DNA from: Nitrosopumilaceae archaeon
GTDB taxonomy: Archaea > Thermoproteota > Nitrososphaeria > Nitrososphaerales > Nitrosopumilaceae
Length of the DNA stretch: 64,000 bases
Assembly (NCBI GenBank): GCA_965214835.1
Contig: CBDCCK010000002.1
Coordinates: 1,792,001 to 1,856,000 of the forward strand
Direction of reading: 5' to 3'
The notes beneath the pieces were generated by a model. The model did not search any database. It was not told where the DNA came from and was given only the letters and a program-made list of their open reading frames with translations. Numbering within the stretch: position 1 is the stretch's first letter; every line of letters begins with the position of its first letter. Shown here piece after piece: positions 11,612-62,574 of the stretch. Both the position numbers and the translations under genes were made by a program.

Positions 11612-12596
11612 AATAGATCCTAGTCCTGTGTGTATTTATGTTGAGTTGTGGAATCTTTGGGAGGTCCGCCTCACGGCGCCGCCCGCGCGGTGGTCAGAAA
11701 TTGGTCCTATGCCCAACCTAAGCGATTACGATAGCAGTCTTTAATCTGCTATAGGCAATCCAAGCATTATCAACACATGCCAAGTACGAGGTCACCTATA
11801 CTGATGACCATTGAAAATTTCGCCTGATTACACATCTTGCAAAGGTTTATAGCTCTCCACCATGACCCTCTTGGCATGAACAAGACGAAAATCCTCACGG
11901 ATGCCATGCATGTCGAAAAGGATCTCAAGATTCACACCAGAATCATGGCGGTGCGCTCCGTACTGCTTGGCAACACCACTGCAGACCGCAGAGATTGCCG
12001 ACGTGACACAGCGTACAGTACAGATGTGGATCGAGAGGTTTGAGCTTGACGGCATCGACGGCCTCCGTGACTCCCCCAACAGGGGCAGAAAACCAAAGGT
12101 TCCGGTCGGCAGGATAAAAAAGATCGCCACAAAGTTGCGCAGGACGGAAAAGCTCACCCCGAAGAAGCTGTGCAACTGGGTGCGCCGCAGGCTGCATGTC
12201 ACATACAGCGTGGGAAGCATCAGAAGAATCCTGCGCACGATGGGATTCTCGCTAAAGACGTCAACCACCAAGCTGGCAGATGCTGCCGACGAAGGCGGTA
12301 AGACGGTGGCAAAGGGCGGCAAAAGACACGATTGCGCTTGCAAAAAGGCGCGGATTTAGGATAACTGTACAGGACGAATCGATATTCGTCAGTACGGGAA
12401 GGGACGGCAGAAAGTTCTGGTCGCCAGTGGGGGACAGGATCTAGGTGCAACGATCCGGCAGAAGGGAGCGCGTCGTGGTATACGGAACGATTGCAGACGA
12501 CGGAACCAGGCTGATGCGCACGTACGACAAGTTCAACAGTGCAAACTTTGTGCGTTATCTTAAACAGGCGCACAAAAAGTGGGGAAAGGTTCTGAT

Positions 12597-12689
12597 GTAC
12601 GAGGTCACCTACCCCTGCCAATCAGGCACGAACTGACATCTATGACTATGATTTTCATGCCTAGTCAACAGGGGGACGTGACCACATAC
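12597..12689. mobile_element. IS66-derived MITE (family D)
   Basis: Ends gtacgaggtcac / gtgaccacatac, 8-bp TSD GTTCTGAT; relative at 50323-50415. Confidence 0.85.
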
Positions 12690-12842
12690 GTTCTGATGGT
12701 GATGGACAACGCAGCACAGCACAAGACCAAAAAGATCCGCAGATACCTAAAGAAAAATCCCGACGTTGTCTTGCTGTACCTGCCGGTAGCTAGGCCGGAG
12801 CTGAGCGCCATAGAGGCAGTCTGGAAGGATGCCAAGTACAGG

Positions 12843-12952
12843 CTGGTCACGTCGGCCTTTTATGACACGGTAGATCACCCGATACCTCCGCGTAGACTGC
12901 CATCGCCATACCCATCTGGTCACGTCGGCCTTTTATGACACGGTAGATCACC
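12843..12952. repeat. 37-bp exact direct repeat flanking a 36-bp unique insert
   Basis: ctggtcacgtcggccttttatgacacggtagatcacc at 12843-12879 and 12916-12952. Confidence 0.9.
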
Positions 12953-53663: not shown

Positions 53664-56234
53664 CTACTCATACTTGACATCCCCGTGCGCCGTGCCGCCG
53701 TTTCCGCTGTCCGAGGAGTCCGACAGGTCGCCTTCGAACTCAAGGTGCATCAGAAGCGCATCATTGTAGGCTCCCATATACGCACAATCGCCGGTAAGCG
53801 CGTCGACGGCACCGTCGCCTCCGGCATCTGACACGGTAGCCATCTCCACGTGGCATTCATGCACGTCTGATACATGGTCGGCAGGCAGCCGTGCCGAGTA
53901 TATCATGACATCATCCAGCACGGTATCATGCGCATGCCCCCTGCCGGTGCTGCTGGCGCCTATCGCAAGCGGATAATCGTTTGTGACGGATCCCTCCAGG
54001 AATGCGTTGTGCCGGCGTATGTTATCGAGCTGTCCGTCCACGTACACATCCAGTCCATTCCTTTCTCTGGAACCGTCATAGGTGAACACGACGTGGTGCC
54101 AGCGGCCATCGGCCACGCCGGAGAACGTGTTGATGGTTATCTGGCTTTTCGTCTCGTCTGTCATCCGGAGTGAGAGCCCGCCGCCGGGGTGGCTCCACAC
54201 AGTGATACCCTGCTGCCGGGCCGCCTCGGCCTTTGATATGATCGACGAGCCAGGTTCTCCAGAGCCGGTCATCTTGATCCAGAACGCGATGCTGAACGGA
54301 TCGGCTCCGCCAAGATCGAGGCCGGGCACGGTGGCAAACGTAACGTATGCGGTACCGTCAAGATGGATGGCCCGACCGGGCGGACTGTACGCGGACAGGG
54401 AGGTCCACTCGGGCGGGTTCCACTCCGTCACATCCACGCTGTGGCCGGCATACTCGTAAACCGCTGATGGTATCGGGGTGTCCGGTTTTGGGGGATTATG
54501 AAACTCGGCCATCCTGCTACCGCCATAGTATATCTCAACATACCGCTTCAGATCTGTTTCCTGGGGTGCCGTCGCATTGCCGACACCATGGTGGGCCCCC
54601 AGCAAGTATCGATTATGTTCCATCCTGTCTACAAATTCTATCATTACGATCTCTTTGGTTTTTTCCGGGTATGTGTTGCTAGCAAAGTTATCTGCCATGC
54701 CGGAATCGGTAAGATTGTAGATGCTTGATAGCCACGATTTGTTAATATTCCGCATGATTATTTGCGCGTCAGAATCCACATAGTTTCGTAGCGCAAAGGA
54801 TACCGCTTCAGGATACGCAGATGTCGCATCCCAGTGCACAAGCACGCCAGATGTGGACAGGCCGAGCGCCGTGGCGGCAAGTACGGCTGCCAACAGTAGC
54901 ACGCGTTGCCCCCTCGAATCCCACCTTCTTGCGTACACTCTTTCTATTCCTCCGCCGAGCAGTGCGGCGGCGGCAACACACATTGCAGTCCACAGCATGC
55001 CTAGGTGGAACCACGATACGTATCCAATTGATCCGAAGAACAGCAGGACTGGTGCTATCCACAGCATCAGAAACCTGTTACGCATGGCGGCCGCAAAGAC
55101 AAGCCCTGCTACACCCAGCGATATCAGGACTGGATCTATCTCGAACAGCCATATCGTGCCCATCAGCAGGATCGCAGGATGGGTCAATATGTCCGGATCT
55201 TGGCCCTGTACTAGGGATATCGGTATGTATTGTTGCAGCGAGTCCAGCATGTGTTGGCCGGATCTGTCTGTCTGCCACAGGACGCCTCTTATCCACTGAT
55301 CGAACTCACCCTCCAGCGCCGCAGACGCGGGCCATGCTGCCGCAATCAGGATCATGGATACAAGCCACAGCAGCATCCATCCCGGCCTTTTGCCGGCCGA
55401 CCAGACCAAAGCAAGAACCAGCGGGATCATCACAAGCGAGGGGATCTTGACAAGCATGGCACATCCCATACAGACGCCCGACAGGAGAACCAGCAGGTGG
55501 GCCTTGTCCGGGGCTGGCTGCAGCGGCGCCCTCCCCCCTGTGACGGAATTGCTCTTTGGATCTGGGCCGCATGCGTACATGGCAAGCAGAACGGAGGACA
55601 GGACAAACGGGAGTAGAATCGAGTCCAGCAGAACCATCCTGAGCGTCAACGATACGGGCATTGCCGCAAACAGGACGGCTGCGATCGGTGCTGCCCTGCG
55701 CCCAAAGCCCCTCTCGACTATCTTGTAGATCAGAAAGGTGTCCAAGACAGCAAGCAGGCCCATGAGGATGCGCGGTGCCCCGTAAAGCATCCCAATCGAG
55801 GACGCATCCTCCGATGTGACAAAGGAGTCAGGATATCCGGTGACATGCATGAATCCGGCCAGTATCGTCCAGCCAAGAAACGGATGGTCGTGAGTGTTCA
55901 ACAGTATCTTGTGATCTGAGACATCCAAGGCCCGGTCTATGTAGGTCGACTCATCCACGTACCAAGGCGGGAAACCCGCCGGGTTCCACAGGTGCGTATA
56001 TGCAGAAAGCGCCAGTATTGCAACAAGCATGAGGAGCGGTCCGCGTCCTGACAGGTGCCCGTGCCAAAAGTGACACGTCCGAGAGGGGGAGGGGCTGTCG
56101 CCTAATTTGCCTCCTTGGCTCAATCTACACGTTTTCCTGAACCTCCACTCCAGCACTCCTAGGCTCGGATGAGATCGTATGGTTTTCAGAAATTCCGATG
56201 AATTAGGCGACAACCCCCGTCCGAGGCCAAGCAT
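53664..56234 (-). CDS. GT-C (ArnT/PMT-like) membrane glycosyltransferase fused to C-terminal LamG/ConA-like domain
   Basis: VDESTY, DHPFLG, many TM helices, RMVLLD; LamG motifs FSIAFWIK, DGRWHHVVFTYDG, VYVDG, LAIG, LDDVMIYS. Confidence 0.85.
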   Translation of the reverse strand: MLGLGRGLSPNSSEFLKTIRSHPSLGVLEWRFRKTCRLSQGGKLGDSPSPSRTCHFWHGHLSGRGPLLMLVAILALSAYTHLWNPAGFPPWYVDESTYIDRALDVSDHKILLNTHDHPFLGWTILAGFMHVTGYPDSFVTSEDASSIGMLYGAPRILMGLLAVLDTFLIYKIVERGFGRRAAPIAAVLFAAMPVSLTLRMVLLDSILLPFVLSSVLLAMYACGPDPKSNSVTGGRAPLQPAPDKAHLLVLLSGVCMGCAMLVKIPSLVMIPLVLALVWSAGKRPGWMLLWLVSMILIAAAWPASAALEGEFDQWIRGVLWQTDRSGQHMLDSLQQYIPISLVQGQDPDILTHPAILLMGTIWLFEIDPVLISLGVAGLVFAAAMRNRFLMLWIAPVLLFFGSIGYVSWFHLGMLWTAMCVAAAALLGGGIERVYARRWDSRGQRVLLLAAVLAATALGLSTSGVLVHWDATSAYPEAVSFALRNYVDSDAQIIMRNINKSWLSSIYNLTDSGMADNFASNTYPEKTKEIVMIEFVDRMEHNRYLLGAHHGVGNATAPQETDLKRYVEIYYGGSRMAEFHNPPKPDTPIPSAVYEYAGHSVDVTEWNPPEWTSLSAYSPPGRAIHLDGTAYVTFATVPGLDLGGADPFSIAFWIKMTGSGEPGSSIISKAEAARQQGITVWSHPGGGLSLRMTDETKSQITINTFSGVADGRWHHVVFTYDGSRERNGLDVYVDGQLDNIRRHNAFLEGSVTNDYPLAIGASSTGRGHAHDTVLDDVMIYSARLPADHVSDVHECHVEMATVSDAGGDGAVDALTGDCAYMGAYNDALLMHLEFEGDLSDSSDSGNGGTAHGDVKYE
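56091..56217. mobile_element. MITE family B inside the 5' end of the GT-C gene
   Basis: TIR gggg(c/t)tgtcgcctaatt; cgtccgag duplicated on both sides. Confidence 0.8.
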
Positions 56235-56501: not shown

Positions 56502-57603
56502 TATAGTGACGATTAAAAGTCTTTGAGGTCAAAAAAAACCAACAGCAACACATTTTGATCGCCATGTTCCATGCATTGCATGGATACTGAACTGGCCGAG
56601 GAGCTCAGAGCGGCATCAAAGACAGAAAAGGATCCCCAAGTCATGTTCAGGATAGCAGCAGTCAACGCAATCTGTGTACGTGGTGAGGACGTAGGCAGCA
56701 CGGCAAAACTTCTCATGCGTACCCCCGACTGCATACGGCAGTGGATCAGCCGCTTTGAGGAGGGGGGCATTGATGCCCTCCGGGATCACTCCCGCAGCTG
56801 AAGGCCGCCCAAGGTAAAGCCCGAGATCATCTCCGAGATCATCGATGATGCCCACGATGGCGTGATCACACCCAGGATTCTGGCCGTCGAAATACGCGAC
56901 AGAACCGGCGTGCAGTACCACCTGTCCTCTGCCAGGAGGCTGATGAGGGAGCAGGACATGTCGCCCAAGACGCCGGAGCTTGTGCACAAGAGCAGGGCAG
57001 ACGTCGATACCATACGCAGGTGGTAGCGCAACGCAAAAAGGCATATTTCACGCCTGGAAAGGGAGGGTTTTACCACCGTAATCCAGGATGAGTCGATCTT
57101 CGTAGACGCCCCGATCGTCGGGCGCAAGTACTGGTCTGCAGTAGGAACGCCGATCACGGTTACATACAGGGGGCGCCGCCGCAGGACTGTGGCCTACGGC
57201 GCAATTGCCACGGACGGACGCCGCTTCTTCCGGACATACGATAAATTTGACGGCCCGACATTCCTCAGGTATTTCAAGGAGCTCCGCAGTCACTTTGGAA
57301 AGGTCCTGGTAATAATGGACGGCGCGTCTGCACATACCACCCGGGATGTAAAAAAGTTCGTGGCAGACAATCCAGACACCTTGAGGGTCAGGTATATGCC
57401 GGTTGCCACCCCGGAGCTCAGCGGCATGGAGGAATACTGGCACCGGGCAAAGCGGGACGCCCTCGTCTCCGAGTACTATGCAACATTCGAGGAGATGAGA
57501 CATGCGCTGTCAGAATACCTGAGGACTACCAGATTCGCGGATGATATTATGTCGTATATCGGGTCGGATCCGGGTTGATCAAAAACTTATGGTCGTCACT
57601 ATA
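56502..57603 (+). mobile_element. IS630 family element (pseudogene)
   Basis: TIR tatagtgacga / ggtcgtcactata; QDESIF, MDGASAH, PELSGMEE; frameshift and stop. Confidence 0.85.
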
Positions 57604-57711
57604 GGCATGGATTAAAGAGACATAATTTGCCGCCGATAAAGGGCCCGGGCGTTTTAACATAGATGGTTACACACGGATCCGTATACATGAGGTTTCGATC
57701 CGAGGGCAGGC

Positions 57712-58821
57712 TCAACCCCTCCGCTGTCTGGTCCTTGAGATCAGCATGCGGTACATTAACAAGCGTGTGAGACGGCGCACGGGCCGGCTCGCAAACACAA
57801 CCCCCAGCACCCGGGCTGCAAGCCTTCCAGCCGCGCCATCATGCGTACCGTACACGAACGAGGTCAGGATGTGATCGGTGTGACGGCACGCCGTCATGAC
57901 AACCATCCTGCGTCCGATTCTCCTGCTGGCCTCGGCATATCTCCGTGGAAAGATGGGTATGTAGGCCAGTTCCCGGATTAACAAGCGTCCGATTCTCCTG
58001 CTGGCCTCGGCATATCTCCCCTGCTCCGGCCCGCTCAGCCTGTTGACTGTGAGCTCTAGTATCTTGCACCTCATGTTGTGCCTCTCTCTCGGGCTTGGCC
58101 GTCCCTGCCCATCGTGCTGCCTGTACCCATATATGATCCCCGGAACGTGGTGGAACCTGTACCCGTGATTTATGGTCAGCCTCATACAGAACTCCTGATC
58201 CTCGCCCCGGTCAAGGCTATCGTCAAAGCCCCCGACATCCTCAAGAATTGACCTGTGAAGGATGGAGACGCACATTTGTCCAAAGGACATGCTGAATATT
58301 GAAGCACCCTGCTCCATCGCGTCCATGGAGTTGTCCATGTAGTATGATACCGTCTTGCCGTTTGGCTTCCCGTCGGATCCCAGCATCTGGAGATCAAAAA
58401 ACGGTATTGTTTTGGTAATCGACGAGGAGTCGAGCCCCTCGGCTGCCCCGACAAGCCTCTCCACTGCGTCAGGATACATTATATCATCAGAGTCCAGGAC
58501 GGCAAGCCACTTCCCGGTCATGTGGGCTATCCCCGTGTTGTAGGCAGCCGCGCGTCCCGCGTGCTCTGTGTTGACTATCCTGATCCTGTCAGAGTACCGC
58601 TCCAGTATCTTGGCCGATCCGTCCGTGGAGCCGTCGTTTACTGCTATGACCTCGATGTTGCCGTATGTCTGTGCCAGTGCGGACTCTATGGACTGCATCA
58701 GGTACCTTTCCCCGTTGTAGACCCGGATTAGTAGCGACACCTTGCCGCTCTTGCCGATCCGTGCTACGCCACCTCCCTCCAGTAATTCTTTCTTTGATTC
58801 CATGCTAGACAGTGTTGTCAC
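57712..58821 (-). CDS. Glycosyltransferase family 2
   Basis: VSLLIRVYN, VNDGSTD, LDSDD, VGGFD, ED.EF, YRQH. Confidence 0.9.
   Translation of the reverse strand: MTTLSSMESKKELLEGGGVARIGKSGKVSLLIRVYNGERYLMQSIESALAQTYGNIEVIAVNDGSTDGSAKILERYSDRIRIVNTEHAGRAAAYNTGIAHMTGKWLAVLDSDDIMYPDAVERLVGAAEGLDSSSITKTIPFFDLQMLGSDGKPNGKTVSYYMDNSMDAMEQGASIFSMSFGQMCVSILHRSILEDVGGFDDSLDRGEDQEFCMRLTINHGYRFHHVPGIIYGYRQHDGQGRPSPRERHNMRCKILELTVNRLSGPEQGRYAEASRRIGRLLIRELAYIPIFPRRYAEASRRIGRRMVVMTACRHTDHILTSFVYGTHDGAAGRLAARVLGVVFASRPVRRLTRLLMYRMLISRTRQRRG
57910..58019. repeat. 35-bp exact direct repeat flanking a 40-bp unique insert (in frame)
   Basis: gcgtccgattctcctgctggcctcggcatatctcc at 57910-57944 and 57985-58019. 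Confidence 0.9.
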
Positions 58822-58857
58822 TCTGCCTCGTGTTACAGATATCTGTTTAGGTCAGTC

Positions 58858-59177
58858 CAGTAGTTGAAGATGTATCCCGTTTCTAAGTGTCTGATCGTTT
58901 TGAACCGATGGACATGATTTTTTGTCCGACCGATCTATAAGCAGCGGTGCCTTCGTCTATCATGATGGGAAAGCAGGGCAGACAGCAGCAGCAACAGCAG
59001 AAACATCTCCGGACAGGGTACGGCGAGGCAGGATTCAAGTCCTTGGTCACCGCAATAGACATGCTGGGAATCAAGTACTCCCCAAGGCACAACGCCATGT
59101 GTGGGCGTGGAAGACGCCTCCGGCCTGATTGCTTCCATGTCAGAGCGTTCTGCATGTGCAAACTATACCGTCCAAAA
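58858..59177 (+). pseudogene. Left end of ISH3-like element (relative of 3937)
   Basis: cagtagttgaagatgtatccc end and colinear similarity to 3937-4235. Confidence 0.8.
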
Positions 59178-60003: not shown

Positions 60004-62574
60004 TTACGCATACTTGACACCCCCGTGCGCCGTGCCGCCGTTTCCGTTGTCCGAGGAGTCCGACAGGTCGCCCTCAAATTCAAGGTGCATCAGAAGCGCA
60101 TCATTGTATGCTCCCATATACGCACAATCGCCGGTAAGCGCGTCGATGACGCCGTCGCCTCCGGCGTCTGACACGGTAGCCATCTCCACGTGGCATTCAT
60201 GCACGTCTGACACATAGTCGGCAGGCAGCCGTGTCGAGTATACCATGATATCGTCCAGTGTAACGTCCTGCACAGCCTTCCCTTCGGTGCTGCCAGCGCC
60301 TATCACAAGCGGATGATCGCTTGCAATGGAGCCCGCCAGTGATGAGCTGTGCCGACGCAGGTTGTCTATCCGTCCGTCCACGTATACGTCGAGTCCGTTC
60401 CTGTACCCGGAGCCGTCGTAGGTGAACACAATATGGTGCCAGCGGCCGTCAGTTACGCCGGAGAACGTGTTGACGGTGATCTGGGTTTTCTCACCGTCTG
60501 TCAACCGGAGCGAGATCCCGCCGCCAGGTTTAGCCCACATGACAATGCCCGGGTGCAGATCTTTCCCGGCCTTTGACATGATCGACGAGCCCGGCTCTCT
60601 GGGGTCGGTCATCTTGATCCAAAAGGTGATGCTGAACGGATTGGCTCCGTCAAGATCTAGACCGGGTGCATCGGCAAGCGTGACGTATGCGGTGCCGTCA
60701 AGGTGGAGGGCCCGGCCGGTGGGGCCGTACGTAGACAGGGAGGACCACTCGGGTGGATGCCACTCGGTCACATCCACACTATGACCGGTATACTCGTAAA
60801 CCGCTGATGGTATAGGGGTGTCCGGTTTTGGGGGACCGTGAAATTCGGCCACTCTAGTGCCACTGTCGTATATCTCCAGATGCCGCTGATGTACATCTGC
60901 TTCCGGAGGCACAGTATTGACGATGCCGTAATGGGTTTCCAACAAGTGCCGAGCCTGCTCGATTCTGTTGATAGATTCTATCATTACGATCCTTTTAGTT
61001 TTTACAGGATGTATGTGCTTAGGGAGATCATCTGCCGTGCCAGAACCGGTAAGATTGTAGACGTTTGACAACAGCGATTCAGTAACCCCACGCATGATTA
61101 TGTCTGTATCAGAATCCGCATAGTTTTGCAGCGTAAAAGACACCGCTTCAGAGTACGCAGATGTAGAGTCCCAGTGTACAAGCACTCCCGACGTAGAAAG
61201 GCCAAGCGATGCGGCCACAAGTACGGCCACCAGCAGCAGTGTGCACTGCCTATCTGGGCCCCGCCTTCCCGCAGACGCCCTTTCGATTCTGCCACTGATC
61301 AGTGCAGCAGTGGCGATGCACATCGCAGTCCACAGCATTCCCAGGTGAAACCACTCTACATATCCAATTAATCCGAAGAACAGCAGGACGGGTACTGCCC
61401 ACAGCATCAGAAACCTGCTACGTATAGCGGCCGCAAAGACTAGACCTATTGCACCCAGTGATATCATGATTGGATCCACTCGAAACAGGGATATGGTGGC
61501 CATCAGCAGGATCGCAGGATGGGTCAATATGTCAGGATCATGACCCTGCACTAGAGCCACTGAAGTGTATTGTTGCAATACGTTCAGCATATTCTGACCG
61601 TATCTGTCTGTCTGCCACAGGACGCCTTTTATCCACTGATCGAACTCACCCTCCAGCGCCGCAGACGCGGGCCATGCTGCCGCAATCAGGATCACGGGCA
61701 CAAGCCACAGCAGCATCCGCCCCGGCCTTTTGCCGGCCGACCAGACCAAAGCAAGAACCAGCGGGATCATGACAAGCGAGGGGATCTTGACAAGCATGGC
61801 ACATCCCATACAGACGCCCGACAGGAGAACCAGCAGGTGGGCCTTGTCCGGGGCTGGCTGCAGCGGCGCCCTCCCCCCTGTGACGGAATTGCTCTTTGGA
61901 TCTGGGCCGCATGCGTACATGGCAAGCAGAACGGAGGACAGGACAAACGGGAGTAGAATCGAGTCCAGCAGAACCATCCTGAGCGTCAACGATACGGGCA
62001 TTGCCGCAAACAGGACGGCTGCGATCGGTGCTGCCCTGCGCCCAAAGCCCCTCTCGACTATCTTGTAGATCAGAAAGGTGTCCAAGACAGCAAGCAGGCC
62101 CATGAGGATGCGCGGTGCCCCGTAAAGCATCCCAATCGAGGACGCATCCTCCGATGTGACAAAGGAGTCAGGATATCCGGTGACATGCATGAATCCGGCC
62201 AGTATCGTCCAGCCAAGAAACGGATGGTCGTGCTTGTCGGACAATATCTTGTAATTCATGGCATCCAGAGCCTGCTCTATATAGACAGACTCGTCTACAT
62301 TCCAGGGCGGGAAACCCGCCGGGTTCCACAGGTGTGTATATGCAGAAAGCACCAGTATTGCAACAAGCATGAGGAGCGGTCCGCGTCCTGACAGGTGCCC
62401 GTGCCAAAAGTGACACGTCCGAGAGGGGGAGGGGCTGTCGCCTAATTTGTCTCCTTGGCTCAATCTACACGTTTTCCTGAACCTCCACTCCAGCACTCCT
62501 AGGCTCGGATGACATCGTATGGTTTTCAGAAATTCCGATGAATTAGGCGACAACCCCCGTCCGAGGCCAAGCAT
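60004..62574 (-). CDS. GT-C/LamG fusion, paralog of 53664-56234
   Basis: Same length (856 aa) and architecture; part of a 2.75-kb duplication. Confidence 0.85.
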   Translation of the reverse strand: MLGLGRGLSPNSSEFLKTIRCHPSLGVLEWRFRKTCRLSQGDKLGDSPSPSRTCHFWHGHLSGRGPLLMLVAILVLSAYTHLWNPAGFPPWNVDESVYIEQALDAMNYKILSDKHDHPFLGWTILAGFMHVTGYPDSFVTSEDASSIGMLYGAPRILMGLLAVLDTFLIYKIVERGFGRRAAPIAAVLFAAMPVSLTLRMVLLDSILLPFVLSSVLLAMYACGPDPKSNSVTGGRAPLQPAPDKAHLLVLLSGVCMGCAMLVKIPSLVMIPLVLALVWSAGKRPGRMLLWLVPVILIAAAWPASAALEGEFDQWIKGVLWQTDRYGQNMLNVLQQYTSVALVQGHDPDILTHPAILLMATISLFRVDPIMISLGAIGLVFAAAIRSRFLMLWAVPVLLFFGLIGYVEWFHLGMLWTAMCIATAALISGRIERASAGRRGPDRQCTLLLVAVLVAASLGLSTSGVLVHWDSTSAYSEAVSFTLQNYADSDTDIIMRGVTESLLSNVYNLTGSGTADDLPKHIHPVKTKRIVMIESINRIEQARHLLETHYGIVNTVPPEADVHQRHLEIYDSGTRVAEFHGPPKPDTPIPSAVYEYTGHSVDVTEWHPPEWSSLSTYGPTGRALHLDGTAYVTLADAPGLDLDGANPFSITFWIKMTDPREPGSSIMSKAGKDLHPGIVMWAKPGGGISLRLTDGEKTQITVNTFSGVTDGRWHHIVFTYDGSGYRNGLDVYVDGRIDNLRRHSSSLAGSIASDHPLVIGAGSTEGKAVQDVTLDDIMVYSTRLPADYVSDVHECHVEMATVSDAGGDGVIDALTGDCAYMGAYNDALLMHLEFEGDLSDSSDNGNGGTAHGGVKYA
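62431..62557. mobile_element. MITE family B inside the 5' end of the second GT-C gene
   Basis: Near-identical to 56091-56217. Confidence 0.8.

What the first reader, a model, noticed from the sequence alone, without database searches (positions are those of the whole stretch)
57910..58019. Second spacer-like insertion, in frame inside an intact GT2 gene (35 + 40 bp)
Seen: an exact 35-bp repeat flanks gtggaaagatgggtatgtaggccagttcccggattaacaa. The net 75-bp gain keeps the frame and yields RYAEASRRIGR-LLIRELAYIPIFPR-RYAEASRRIGR. The unit length (75) is almost the same as at 12843 (73), though the sequences are unrelated. Inference: two independent events in 64 kb imply a recurrent genome-wide process. 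The frameshifting case sits in a dead IS and the frame-preserving case in a live gene, as selection would predict. This would make spacer-type integration a source of new protein sequence.
Basis: partly seen in the sequence, partly recalled or inferred. Interest (0 to 1): 0.7.

Follow-up and report, generated by a model that had tools for sequence, protein, structure and literature searches.

The report
Misplaced CRISPR spacer inside a gene
A 75-base insertion in a sugar-transferase gene is the footprint of the cell's own CRISPR memory enzyme pasting a spacer into the wrong place, one of about 35 such scars in this archaeal genome, which makes this a rare natural record of how often that enzyme misfires.

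Summary
An exact 35-bp direct repeat (window 57910-57944 and 57985-58019) flanks a unique 40-bp insert, in frame in an intact GT2 gene.

It is an insertion. Two paralogs in the same genome, all 13 aligned homologs, a database allele identical apart from the missing 25 aa, and a contig of one public run that skips exactly these 75 bases all carry one copy of the repeat and no insert.

The genome has a single Cas1, a type I-G Cas4/Cas1 fusion with Cas2, beside a 148-repeat array. Its repeat is 36 nt and its spacers 35-41 nt.

Genome-wide, 33-35 isolated repeat-insert-repeat units have these dimensions: duplication mode 36 bp, period 71-76 bp. Only 5 occur at all other periods from 40 to 130.

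Ten inserts copy other chromosomal sites. Seven of these ten sit next to TTC or TTG, which fits the published I-G PAM.

Best reading: off-target Cas4/1-Cas2 spacer integration, known from E. coli experiments. Here it is natural, polymorphic and unusually frequent.

The source of this 40-mer was not found. The frame-selection argument is only a weak trend (20 of 35 in frame against 62 of 147 in the array).

The scan has noted single events of this kind in other genomes.

The parts
57910..57944 (.). Copy 1 of the duplicated 35-bp target ('neo-repeat'). It is GT2 coding sequence.
   Evidence: Exact repeat. Present once in the paralogs and in the empty allele.
57945..57984 (.). 40-bp spacer-like insert of unknown source. 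Its orientation cannot be assigned.
   Evidence: Absent from the paralogs, from 13 of 13 homologs and from the run X5 contig. No other copy in the genome or in any collection searched. Its length lies within the canonical spacer range of 35-41 nt.
57985..58019 (.). Copy 2 of the duplicated 35-bp target.
57712..58821 (-). Host gene: family 2 glycosyltransferase, 369 aa, open frame kept. The insert adds 25 aa at about residues 280-304, C-terminal to the catalytic domain (Pfam matches end near residue 230).
12843..12879 (.). Second unit in the window: copy 1 of a 37-bp duplicated target.
12880..12915 (.). Second unit: 36-bp insert.
   Evidence: No other copy in the genome or in viral contigs.
12916..12952 (.). 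Second unit: copy 2 of the 37-bp target.
   Evidence: 23 ungapped paralogous empty sites in other copies of the element.
11901..12938 (+). Fragmented IS630-family transposase gene that hosts the second unit. The 73-bp period shifts the frame.
   Evidence: NF033545, 68.1 and 53.5 bits on two separate fragments, both below the 100-bit cut-off; an ancestral frame of 131 codons is lost with the insert.

Best explanation
The 35 + 40 bp unit is the scar of an off-target (ectopic) CRISPR spacer integration by the genome's own type I-G adaptation complex, a Cas4/Cas1 fusion with Cas2.

Inferred steps: the complex captured a roughly 39-40 bp prespacer. It made its two strand-transfer attacks about 36 bp apart on opposite strands of ordinary coding DNA instead of at the leader-repeat junction. 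Gap repair then duplicated the 35-36 bp between the attack sites. The result is repeat-spacer-repeat, where the 'repeat' is GT2 coding sequence.

Shown here: the footprint, the empty alleles, and the match of dimensions and PAM to the resident system.

Inferred: that Cas4/1-Cas2 is the enzyme, and that the unit makes no crRNA. The neo-repeat lacks the hairpin of the canonical repeat.

Because the unit is 75 bp, the gene keeps its frame and gains 25 residues outside the catalytic domain. The same process has hit at least 33-35 sites in this chromosome. The insert here is polymorphic among public sequencing runs, so it is probably recent, unless the empty allele is a revertant.
For: (1) Empty sites. 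Paralogs at C2:2158156-2159123 (87% identical) and C2:1060406-1061314 (83%) have one copy of the 35-mer and no 40-mer. All 13 aligned homologs lack the 25 aa. P0001 (344 aa, from a 1769-bp contig of another assembly) is identical to the window's protein apart from this gap. A 448-nt contig of run X5 joins 57909 to 57985, skipping 75 bases with 0 other letters. Contigs of X1, X4 and X6 carry the insert.
(2) Resident machinery. There is one Cas1 in the genome. It is a 566-aa Cas4g/Cas1g fusion (NF049935, 754.8 bits against a cut-off of 560) followed by Cas2, then an array of 148 repeats of 36 nt, then Cas3g, Cas8g2, Cas7g and Csb2.
(3) Dimensions. In the strict set of 35 events the duplication is 36 nt in 14 and 37 nt in 11. 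The lengths of 36-39 nt fit a fixed 36 bp plus chance extension (observed 14, 11, 3, 2; expected 16.9, 8.4, 3.2, 1.5). The period distribution does not differ from the canonical array (chi-square p = 0.56).
(4) Excess over background: 33 isolated units at periods 71-76 against 5 at all other periods from 40 to 130. Allowing up to 2 mismatches in 34 nt, periods 71-76 hold 47 and other periods 0-7 each.
(5) PAM. Of 10 inserts with a second copy in the chromosome, 7 have TTC or TTG directly beside the protospacer on one side. TTN and a predominant 36-bp spacer are the published properties of a Cas4/1 fusion system of this subtype (PMC6547450, passages read).
(6) Self-derived inserts: 10 of 35 in ectopic units against 0 of 145 in the canonical array (Fisher p = 2.4e-8). 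This is expected if array spacers are purged by autoimmunity and ectopic ones are never used.
(7) 12 of 35 events have ungapped paralogous empty sites elsewhere in the genome.
Against: The duplication at this site is 35 bp, not 36. Five of the 35 strict events are 34-35 bp, so the ruler is not exact off target.

No protospacer was found for this 40-mer, so neither its PAM nor its orientation can be checked.

The duplicated targets do not resemble the canonical repeat (about 25% identity, the random level) or the leader end. There is only a weak junction preference: G at the first duplicated base in 36 of 72 ends, and T at position -2 in 2 of 72.

Three of the 10 self-derived inserts lack an adjacent TTN.

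In related genomes with type I-G systems, similar footprints exist, but the four protospacers found there are not flanked by TTN. The PAM argument therefore rests on this genome alone.

Enzyme activity was not and could not be tested here.
Confidence: 0.9

Rival explanations
1. An unknown, non-CRISPR 'ruler' insertion process adds about 72 bp (a short copy of genomic DNA plus a long target duplication).
For: The targets show no likeness to the CRISPR repeat or leader. In the related genomes G059 and G070, similar units have inserts copied from the genome without a TTN flank, and two protospacers in G059 share the same 8 bases upstream. 10 of 35 inserts here are the cell's own DNA.
Against: In this genome the duplication is fixed at the canonical repeat length and does not compensate for insert length (fit to 36 bp plus chance extension). 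The periods match the canonical array (p = 0.56). The inserts fold no better than canonical spacers (DNA folding energy, p = 0.56). 7 of 10 protospacers carry TTC or TTG. No other integrase with such a ruler is known to me (recalled).
Confidence: 0.06
2. A tiny mobile element (MITE-like, or a hairpin element) with an unusually long target-site duplication.
For: Insert plus flanking direct repeat is the general form of a transposition scar.
Against: The 35 inserts are all different from each other, apart from one event copied with its host element. They have no shared ends and no inverted termini. Many are exact copies of ordinary genes elsewhere in the chromosome. No inverted repeat was found in window 57000-59000, which contains the unit.
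Confidence: 0.02
3. Local tandem duplication or replication slippage, or an assembly artefact.
For: An exact repeat in tandem register.
Against: The 40-bp middle is not a copy of neighbouring sequence and is missing from every empty site. A tandem duplication of 75 bp would give A-B-A-B, not A-B-A. The insert-bearing form is assembled independently in runs of two studies, and the empty form in another run.
Confidence: 0.01

Closest known systems
Non-canonical (off-target) Cas1-Cas2 spacer integration giving 'neo-CRISPR' units (Nivala, Shipman and Church, Nat Microbiol 2018). The paper is not held. I know it only through citing passages in 10.1101/148544 section 16 and PMC6698737 discussion, plus recall.
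   Same: A spacer-length insert flanked by a duplication of non-CRISPR DNA as long as the resident repeat. The inserts are taken partly from the cell's own DNA.
   Different: That work used E. coli type I-E, whose acquisition machinery needs artificial up-regulation. The citing preprint says natural evidence was 'circumstantial' in two other species. Here the system is a type I-G Cas4/1 fusion in an archaeon, the events are natural, and 33-35 lie in one chromosome. One of them has both alleles in public runs, several sit in frame in open genes, and a PAM signal is present.
Canonical type I-G (formerly I-U) adaptation by Cas4/1-Cas2, Geobacter sulfurreducens (PMC6547450, passages read).
   Same: A fused Cas4/Cas1 with Cas2. 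Predominant 36-bp spacers. TTN PAM upstream of protospacers.
   Different: Canonical integration is at the leader-proximal repeat. Here the target is arbitrary, somewhat GC-rich DNA with only a weak junction preference.
Ectopic spacer acquisition within CRISPR arrays (Streptococcus thermophilus; PMC7999890 and PMC5338259, search listing only).
   Same: Integration away from the leader-proximal repeat.
   Different: Those events use true repeats inside the array. Here the 'repeat' is unrelated coding DNA far from any array.

Membership tests
Off-target Cas1-Cas2 spacer integration (neo-CRISPR unit) | The target duplication is as long as the resident CRISPR repeat | tested here: met
   The canonical repeat is 36 nt. 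The genome-wide mode of the duplication is 36 (14 of 35), then 37 (11 of 35), which fits 36 plus chance extension. This locus has 35 bp, one short.
Off-target Cas1-Cas2 spacer integration (neo-CRISPR unit) | The insert falls in the spacer-length range of the resident array | tested here: met
   40 bp here. Canonical spacers are 35-41 nt (4 of 147 are 40 nt), apart from outliers of 26 and 51 nt. The period distributions do not differ (p = 0.56).
Off-target Cas1-Cas2 spacer integration (neo-CRISPR unit) | The insert is unrelated to its flanks, and an empty site with one copy of the target exists | tested here: met
Off-target Cas1-Cas2 spacer integration (neo-CRISPR unit) | An intact Cas1-Cas2 is encoded in the same genome | tested here: met
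   Cas4g/Cas1g at 754.8 bits over profile positions 2-546, with no stops. Cas2 matches PF09827 at 59.7 bits.
Off-target Cas1-Cas2 spacer integration (neo-CRISPR unit) | The protospacers carry the system's PAM | tested here: inconclusive
   7 of 10 self-derived ectopic inserts have TTC or TTG adjacent. No protospacer was found for this locus's insert, so the feature is untestable here.
Off-target Cas1-Cas2 spacer integration (neo-CRISPR unit) | The target resembles the leader-repeat junction | tested here: not met
   Identity to the repeat is at the random level, and the mean match to the last 10 leader bases is 3.3. There is only a weak preference for C at -4, G or C at -2 and G at +1. I recall this as a tendency in the E. 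coli study and not as a requirement.
Off-target Cas1-Cas2 spacer integration (neo-CRISPR unit) | Catalysis by Cas1-Cas2 shown directly | not testable with these tools
   Needs in vitro or genetic assays.
Functional CRISPR array | Repeats of the system's own sequence and fold, so that crRNA can be processed | tested here: not met
   The 35-mer is unrelated to the canonical repeat. The canonical repeat folds into a 7-bp stem at -7.6 kcal/mol, while the ectopic duplications as a set fold no better than random genomic 36-mers.
Glycosyltransferase family 2 (host gene) | A GT-A catalytic domain with conserved acidic motifs and an uninterrupted frame | tested here: met
   PF00535 at 108.5 bits. D63, D67, D112 and D113 are invariant in 14 sequences, and the frame is open over 369 aa. 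Activity was not tested.

The most novel reading that the evidence does not exclude
In this archaeon the type I-G adaptation module acts as a continuing, genome-wide insertional mutagen. It scatters 71-76 bp units through genes and insertion sequences, some of them as in-frame additions of 24-25 residues. At least one is still polymorphic in nature, and three have grown to three repeats.

Because ectopic spacers are never used for interference, they keep an unselected record of what the machinery samples. About 29% is the cell's own DNA, with a hotspot 1-5 kb from orc1/cdc6. Targets are concentrated in the 150 kb next to the cas genes.

The load may stem from the cas4/1-cas2 genes lying co-directionally just downstream of a ribosomal-protein operon. 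Similar scars in other genomes with type I-G suggest a general fidelity cost of this subtype.
Probability: 0.55. Interest if true: 0.8.

Novelty: new member of a known kind. Interest (0 to 1): 0.72.

Why it matters
Off-target spacer integration is known mainly from over-expression experiments in E. coli. How often it happens in nature, and what it costs, is largely unmeasured.

This genome offers dozens of clean natural events with known dimensions. Empty sites are available, both as paralogs and as a population allele. Part of the donor sites are identified.

That makes several questions directly testable:
- the fidelity of a Cas4/1-Cas2 integrase in vivo;
- its target-site and donor-site preferences without the filter of autoimmunity;
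- whether CRISPR adaptation is a measurable source of gene disruption and of in-frame protein insertions;
- how new repeat families (neo-CRISPR arrays) might start.

Tried and rejected
Source of the 40-mer. No match in the own genome (blastn-short), viral contigs (24), genome contigs (25), metagenome contigs (42), phages, plasmids, or 300 genomes of the family with up to 3 mismatches (60). Three other ectopic inserts also found nothing in viral contigs.

DNA of the empty allele. The search for related loci with P0001 in metagenome contigs returned only distant relatives at 32-37% identity.

RNA evidence. No RNA holder was listed for the stretch, so nothing can be said on expression.

Likeness of the targets to the canonical repeat or leader: none. 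Hairpin bias of the inserts or of the targets: none.

Frame selection. It is a trend only, so I do not use it as evidence.

Events set aside before counting:
- Low-complexity or tandem cases: C2:35551, 1727174, 1727235, 2212075.
- Units with a duplication under 34 nt or an insert under 34 nt: 546457, 1668572, 3127496, 2037185, 2260966.
- One member of a duplicated pair: 1966990.
- The uniform filter lists 33 units at periods 71-76 against 35 in the strict set. It does not name the two it drops. 558201 (internal repeat) and 1736693 (a paralogous copy with diverged repeats) are the two I consider doubtful.

Papers. Nivala et al. 2018 could not be read (not held). One paper reading failed on a search term that was too short and was not repeated. 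Searches for a report of many natural off-target events in one genome listed none; apart from the passages read, only titles and abstract openings were seen.

Full report
OBSERVATION. The sequence is as described. Two exact copies of a 35-nt sequence lie at 57910-57944 and 57985-58019, separated by a 40-nt middle. The unit sits in the minus-strand ORF 57712..58821 (369 aa). The frame stays open and reads RYAEASRRIGR-LLIRELAYIPIFPR-RYAEASRRIGR, at residues 269-304. The protein is a family 2 glycosyltransferase (PF00535, 108.5 bits). All Pfam matches end near residue 230, so the insert lies C-terminal to the catalytic domain. These two are the only such repeats in the window. The second unit lies in a fragmented IS630-family transposase gene.

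INSERTION OR DUPLICATION.
- The chromosome holds two paralogs of the gene, 87% and 83% identical. Both have one copy of the 35-mer and nothing where the 40-mer would be.
- All 13 aligned homologs, at 50-76% identity by the aligner's gap-counting measure, have a single RYAEA-type motif and no insert.
- One of them, P0001 (344 aa, from a 1769-bp contig of another assembly), is residue-for-residue identical to the window's protein except for the missing 25 aa. The genome's own annotated protein, P0121 (363 aa), falls in the same 90% cluster.
- Laying the contigs of four public runs on the locus showed a 448-nt contig in run X5 that joins 57909 to 57985, 'skips 75', with no other difference. Runs X1 and X4, and X6 from the same study as X5, carry the insert.

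So the 75 bp were added to a pre-existing gene, and both alleles exist in nature. I cannot tell whether the empty allele is ancestral or a precise revertant produced by recombination between the two copies.

THE RESIDENT CRISPR SYSTEM. The window is G000:C2:1792001-1856000. The genome has one Cas1 homolog. It is a 566-aa Cas4/Cas1 fusion (NF049935, 754.8 bits against a cut-off of 560) followed by Cas2. An array at C2:2482178-2492880 follows, then an IS630 transposase, then Cas3g, Cas8g2, Cas7g/Csb1 and Csb2. This is a type I-G locus. The array has 148 repeats of 36 nt. Of its 147 spacers, 145 are 35-41 nt (36 nt: 45; 37 nt: 54; 40 nt: 4) and the other two are 26 and 51 nt. Published work on a Cas4/1 fusion system of this subtype reports predominant 36-bp spacers and a TTN PAM upstream of protospacers (PMC6547450, passages read).

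A GENOME-WIDE PROCESS. A scan for short-range exact direct repeats found dozens of isolated two-copy repeats of about 36 nt with periods of 71-76, each with its own sequence. With one uniform filter (exact repeat of 34-39 nt, isolated, no shared 8-mers between repeat and insert), 33 units fall at periods 71-76. Five fall at all other periods from 40 to 130. Allowing up to 2 mismatches adds few: 47 at periods 71-76 before curation, against 0-7 per period elsewhere. Nearly all units therefore have undiverged repeats.

My curated strict set has 35 events. The excluded cases are listed under Tried and rejected. In this set:
- Duplication lengths are 34 (2), 35 (3), 36 (14), 37 (11), 38 (3) and 39 (2). 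The lengths of 36-39 nt fit a fixed 36-bp duplication extended by chance identity (expected 16.9, 8.4, 3.2, 1.5).
- The period distribution does not differ from that of the canonical array (chi-square p = 0.56).
- Twelve of the 35 have ungapped empty sites in paralogous copies within the genome.

Three further loci have three repeats with the same insert twice.

DONORS AND PAM. Ten of the 35 inserts have a full-length or near full-length second copy elsewhere in the chromosome. None of the 145 canonical spacers does (Fisher p = 2.4e-8). One canonical spacer matches the small replicon C1. Seven of the ten donor sites have TTC or TTG directly adjacent on one side. By my estimate from base composition, about 6% would do so by chance. 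Three of the ten donors lie at C2:902180-906409, which is 1-5 kb from orc1/cdc6 and flanked by the two PolD subunit genes, the usual setting of an archaeal replication origin. The inserts fold no better than canonical spacers.

TARGETS. The duplicated segments do not resemble the canonical repeat or the leader and are not enriched in hairpins. They are somewhat GC-rich, 57.9% against 52.8% (p = 0.01). G is the first duplicated base in 36 of 72 ends (p = 2e-5), and T at position -2 occurs in only 2 of 72. Nine events lie in the 152 kb just upstream of the cas genes, where 1.7 are expected (P = 6e-5, a window chosen after seeing the data). Of the 35 events, 28 lie beyond 1.6 Mb.

MECHANISM. The best-supported account is off-target integration by Cas4/1-Cas2: two strand transfers about 36 bp apart on ordinary DNA, then gap repair that duplicates the segment between them. 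The footprint, the empty sites, and the match in dimensions and PAM are shown. The identity of the enzyme is inferred. That PAM-side processing orients the spacer is taken from the literature on this subtype, which I recall and did not re-read in full. The 35-bp rather than 36-bp duplication here is within the off-target scatter: 5 of 35 events are 34-35 bp.

SELECTION. 20 of the 35 units are multiples of three, against 62 of 147 in the array (Fisher p = 0.13; one-sided binomial p = 0.053). Among units in ancestral open frames of 200 codons or more the count is 8 of 12. Three of the four frameshifting ones lie in multi-copy elements.

RELATIVES. Cas4g/Cas1g scores above its cut-off in 7 of 61 genomes searched in the family, this genome included. 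I sampled 0.36-0.40 Mb around the cas locus of three of them. G004 has 1 candidate unit, G059 has 3, and G070 has 3 at its array's period plus 4 at other periods. All 3 inserts of G059 and 1 of the 3 in G070 have a second copy in their own genome. Their flanks are not TTN, and two in G059 share 8 upstream bases. The scars are thus not unique to this genome, but I did not establish their mechanism in the relatives.

WHAT IS KNOWN. Off-target integration that creates neo-CRISPR units was shown in E. coli, whose acquisition machinery needs artificial up-regulation, with circumstantial evidence in two other species. I take this from a citing preprint (10.1101/148544, section 16) and from PMC6698737. 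The original paper is not held. Three literature searches listed no report of many natural events in one genome; apart from the passages read, only titles and abstract openings were seen. Earlier notes of this scan record single candidate events in other genomes.

VERDICT. It is a natural instance of a known reaction, here with a type I-G system. It is notable for its number, for a demonstrably polymorphic in-frame insertion in an intact gene, and for the unselected view it gives of spacer uptake.

Noticed in passing
G000:C2:2470879-2482006 (outside the window; locus L010 6879-18007): cas4/1-cas2 lie on the same strand about 620 bp downstream of a run of ribosomal-protein genes: L3, L4, L23, S19, L22, S3, L14, L24, S4e, L5 and L6. 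In G004 the gene upstream of cas4/1 is on the opposite strand and is unrelated. Read-through from the ribosomal operon could raise expression of the adaptation genes and explain the load of off-target events. This is speculation.
   Followed up: partly
G000:C2:900127-906409 (outside the window; locus L041): Three of the ten self-derived ectopic inserts come from a 4-kb stretch next to orc1/cdc6 and the PolD subunit genes, which is probably the replication origin. This looks like a donor hotspot.
   Followed up: partly
G000:C2:2330000-2482000 (outside the window): Nine of the 35 ectopic units cluster in the 152 kb just upstream of the cas locus, where 1.7 are expected. The window was chosen after seeing the data.
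   Followed up: partly
G000:C2:2513205, 2610439 and 2832639 (outside the window): Three ectopic units have three copies of their private repeat and the same insert twice. They could be unit duplications, that is, growing neo-arrays.
   Followed up: partly
G000:C2:2159111 and C2:1921439/1966990 (outside the window); related to window 53664-56234 and 60004-62574: The same glycosylation gene family was hit repeatedly. The GT2 paralog at C2:2158156 carries its own 37 + 35 bp unit near its 3' end. Two copies of an 836-codon open frame carry an identical in-frame 72-bp unit. These are probable paralogs of the two 856-aa genes that flank the GT2 gene in the window, since their duplicated 34-mer matches both of those genes at 88%.
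   Followed up: partly
G000:C1:6366-6401 (small 13-kb replicon): Canonical array spacer 41 matches the genome's own small replicon at 36 of 37 positions. The mismatch is at the first spacer base, and GTTC lies at the upstream junction: three flanking bases GTT, then the C at the mismatched first position. This is possible self-targeting, or escape from it.
   Followed up: no
G000:C2:130077-136500 (outside the window; locus L012): A second small array uses two variants of the same repeat and has one duplicated spacer. It lies next to a truncated cas3g fragment and to VirB4/VirD4-like genes, which suggests an integrated conjugative element.
   Followed up: no
G059:C1:925987 and 1512149 (loci L082, L083): In a related genome with a type I-G system, two donor sites of ectopic-type inserts share the same 8 bases (CTTGCCAC) directly upstream and have no TTN. 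This remains unexplained. It could be a different PAM or a different process.
   Followed up: partly
window 56571-57578: Fragments of another IS630-family transposase lie directly downstream of the GT2 gene. The genome is rich in such elements, and many ectopic units sit in them.
   Followed up: partly
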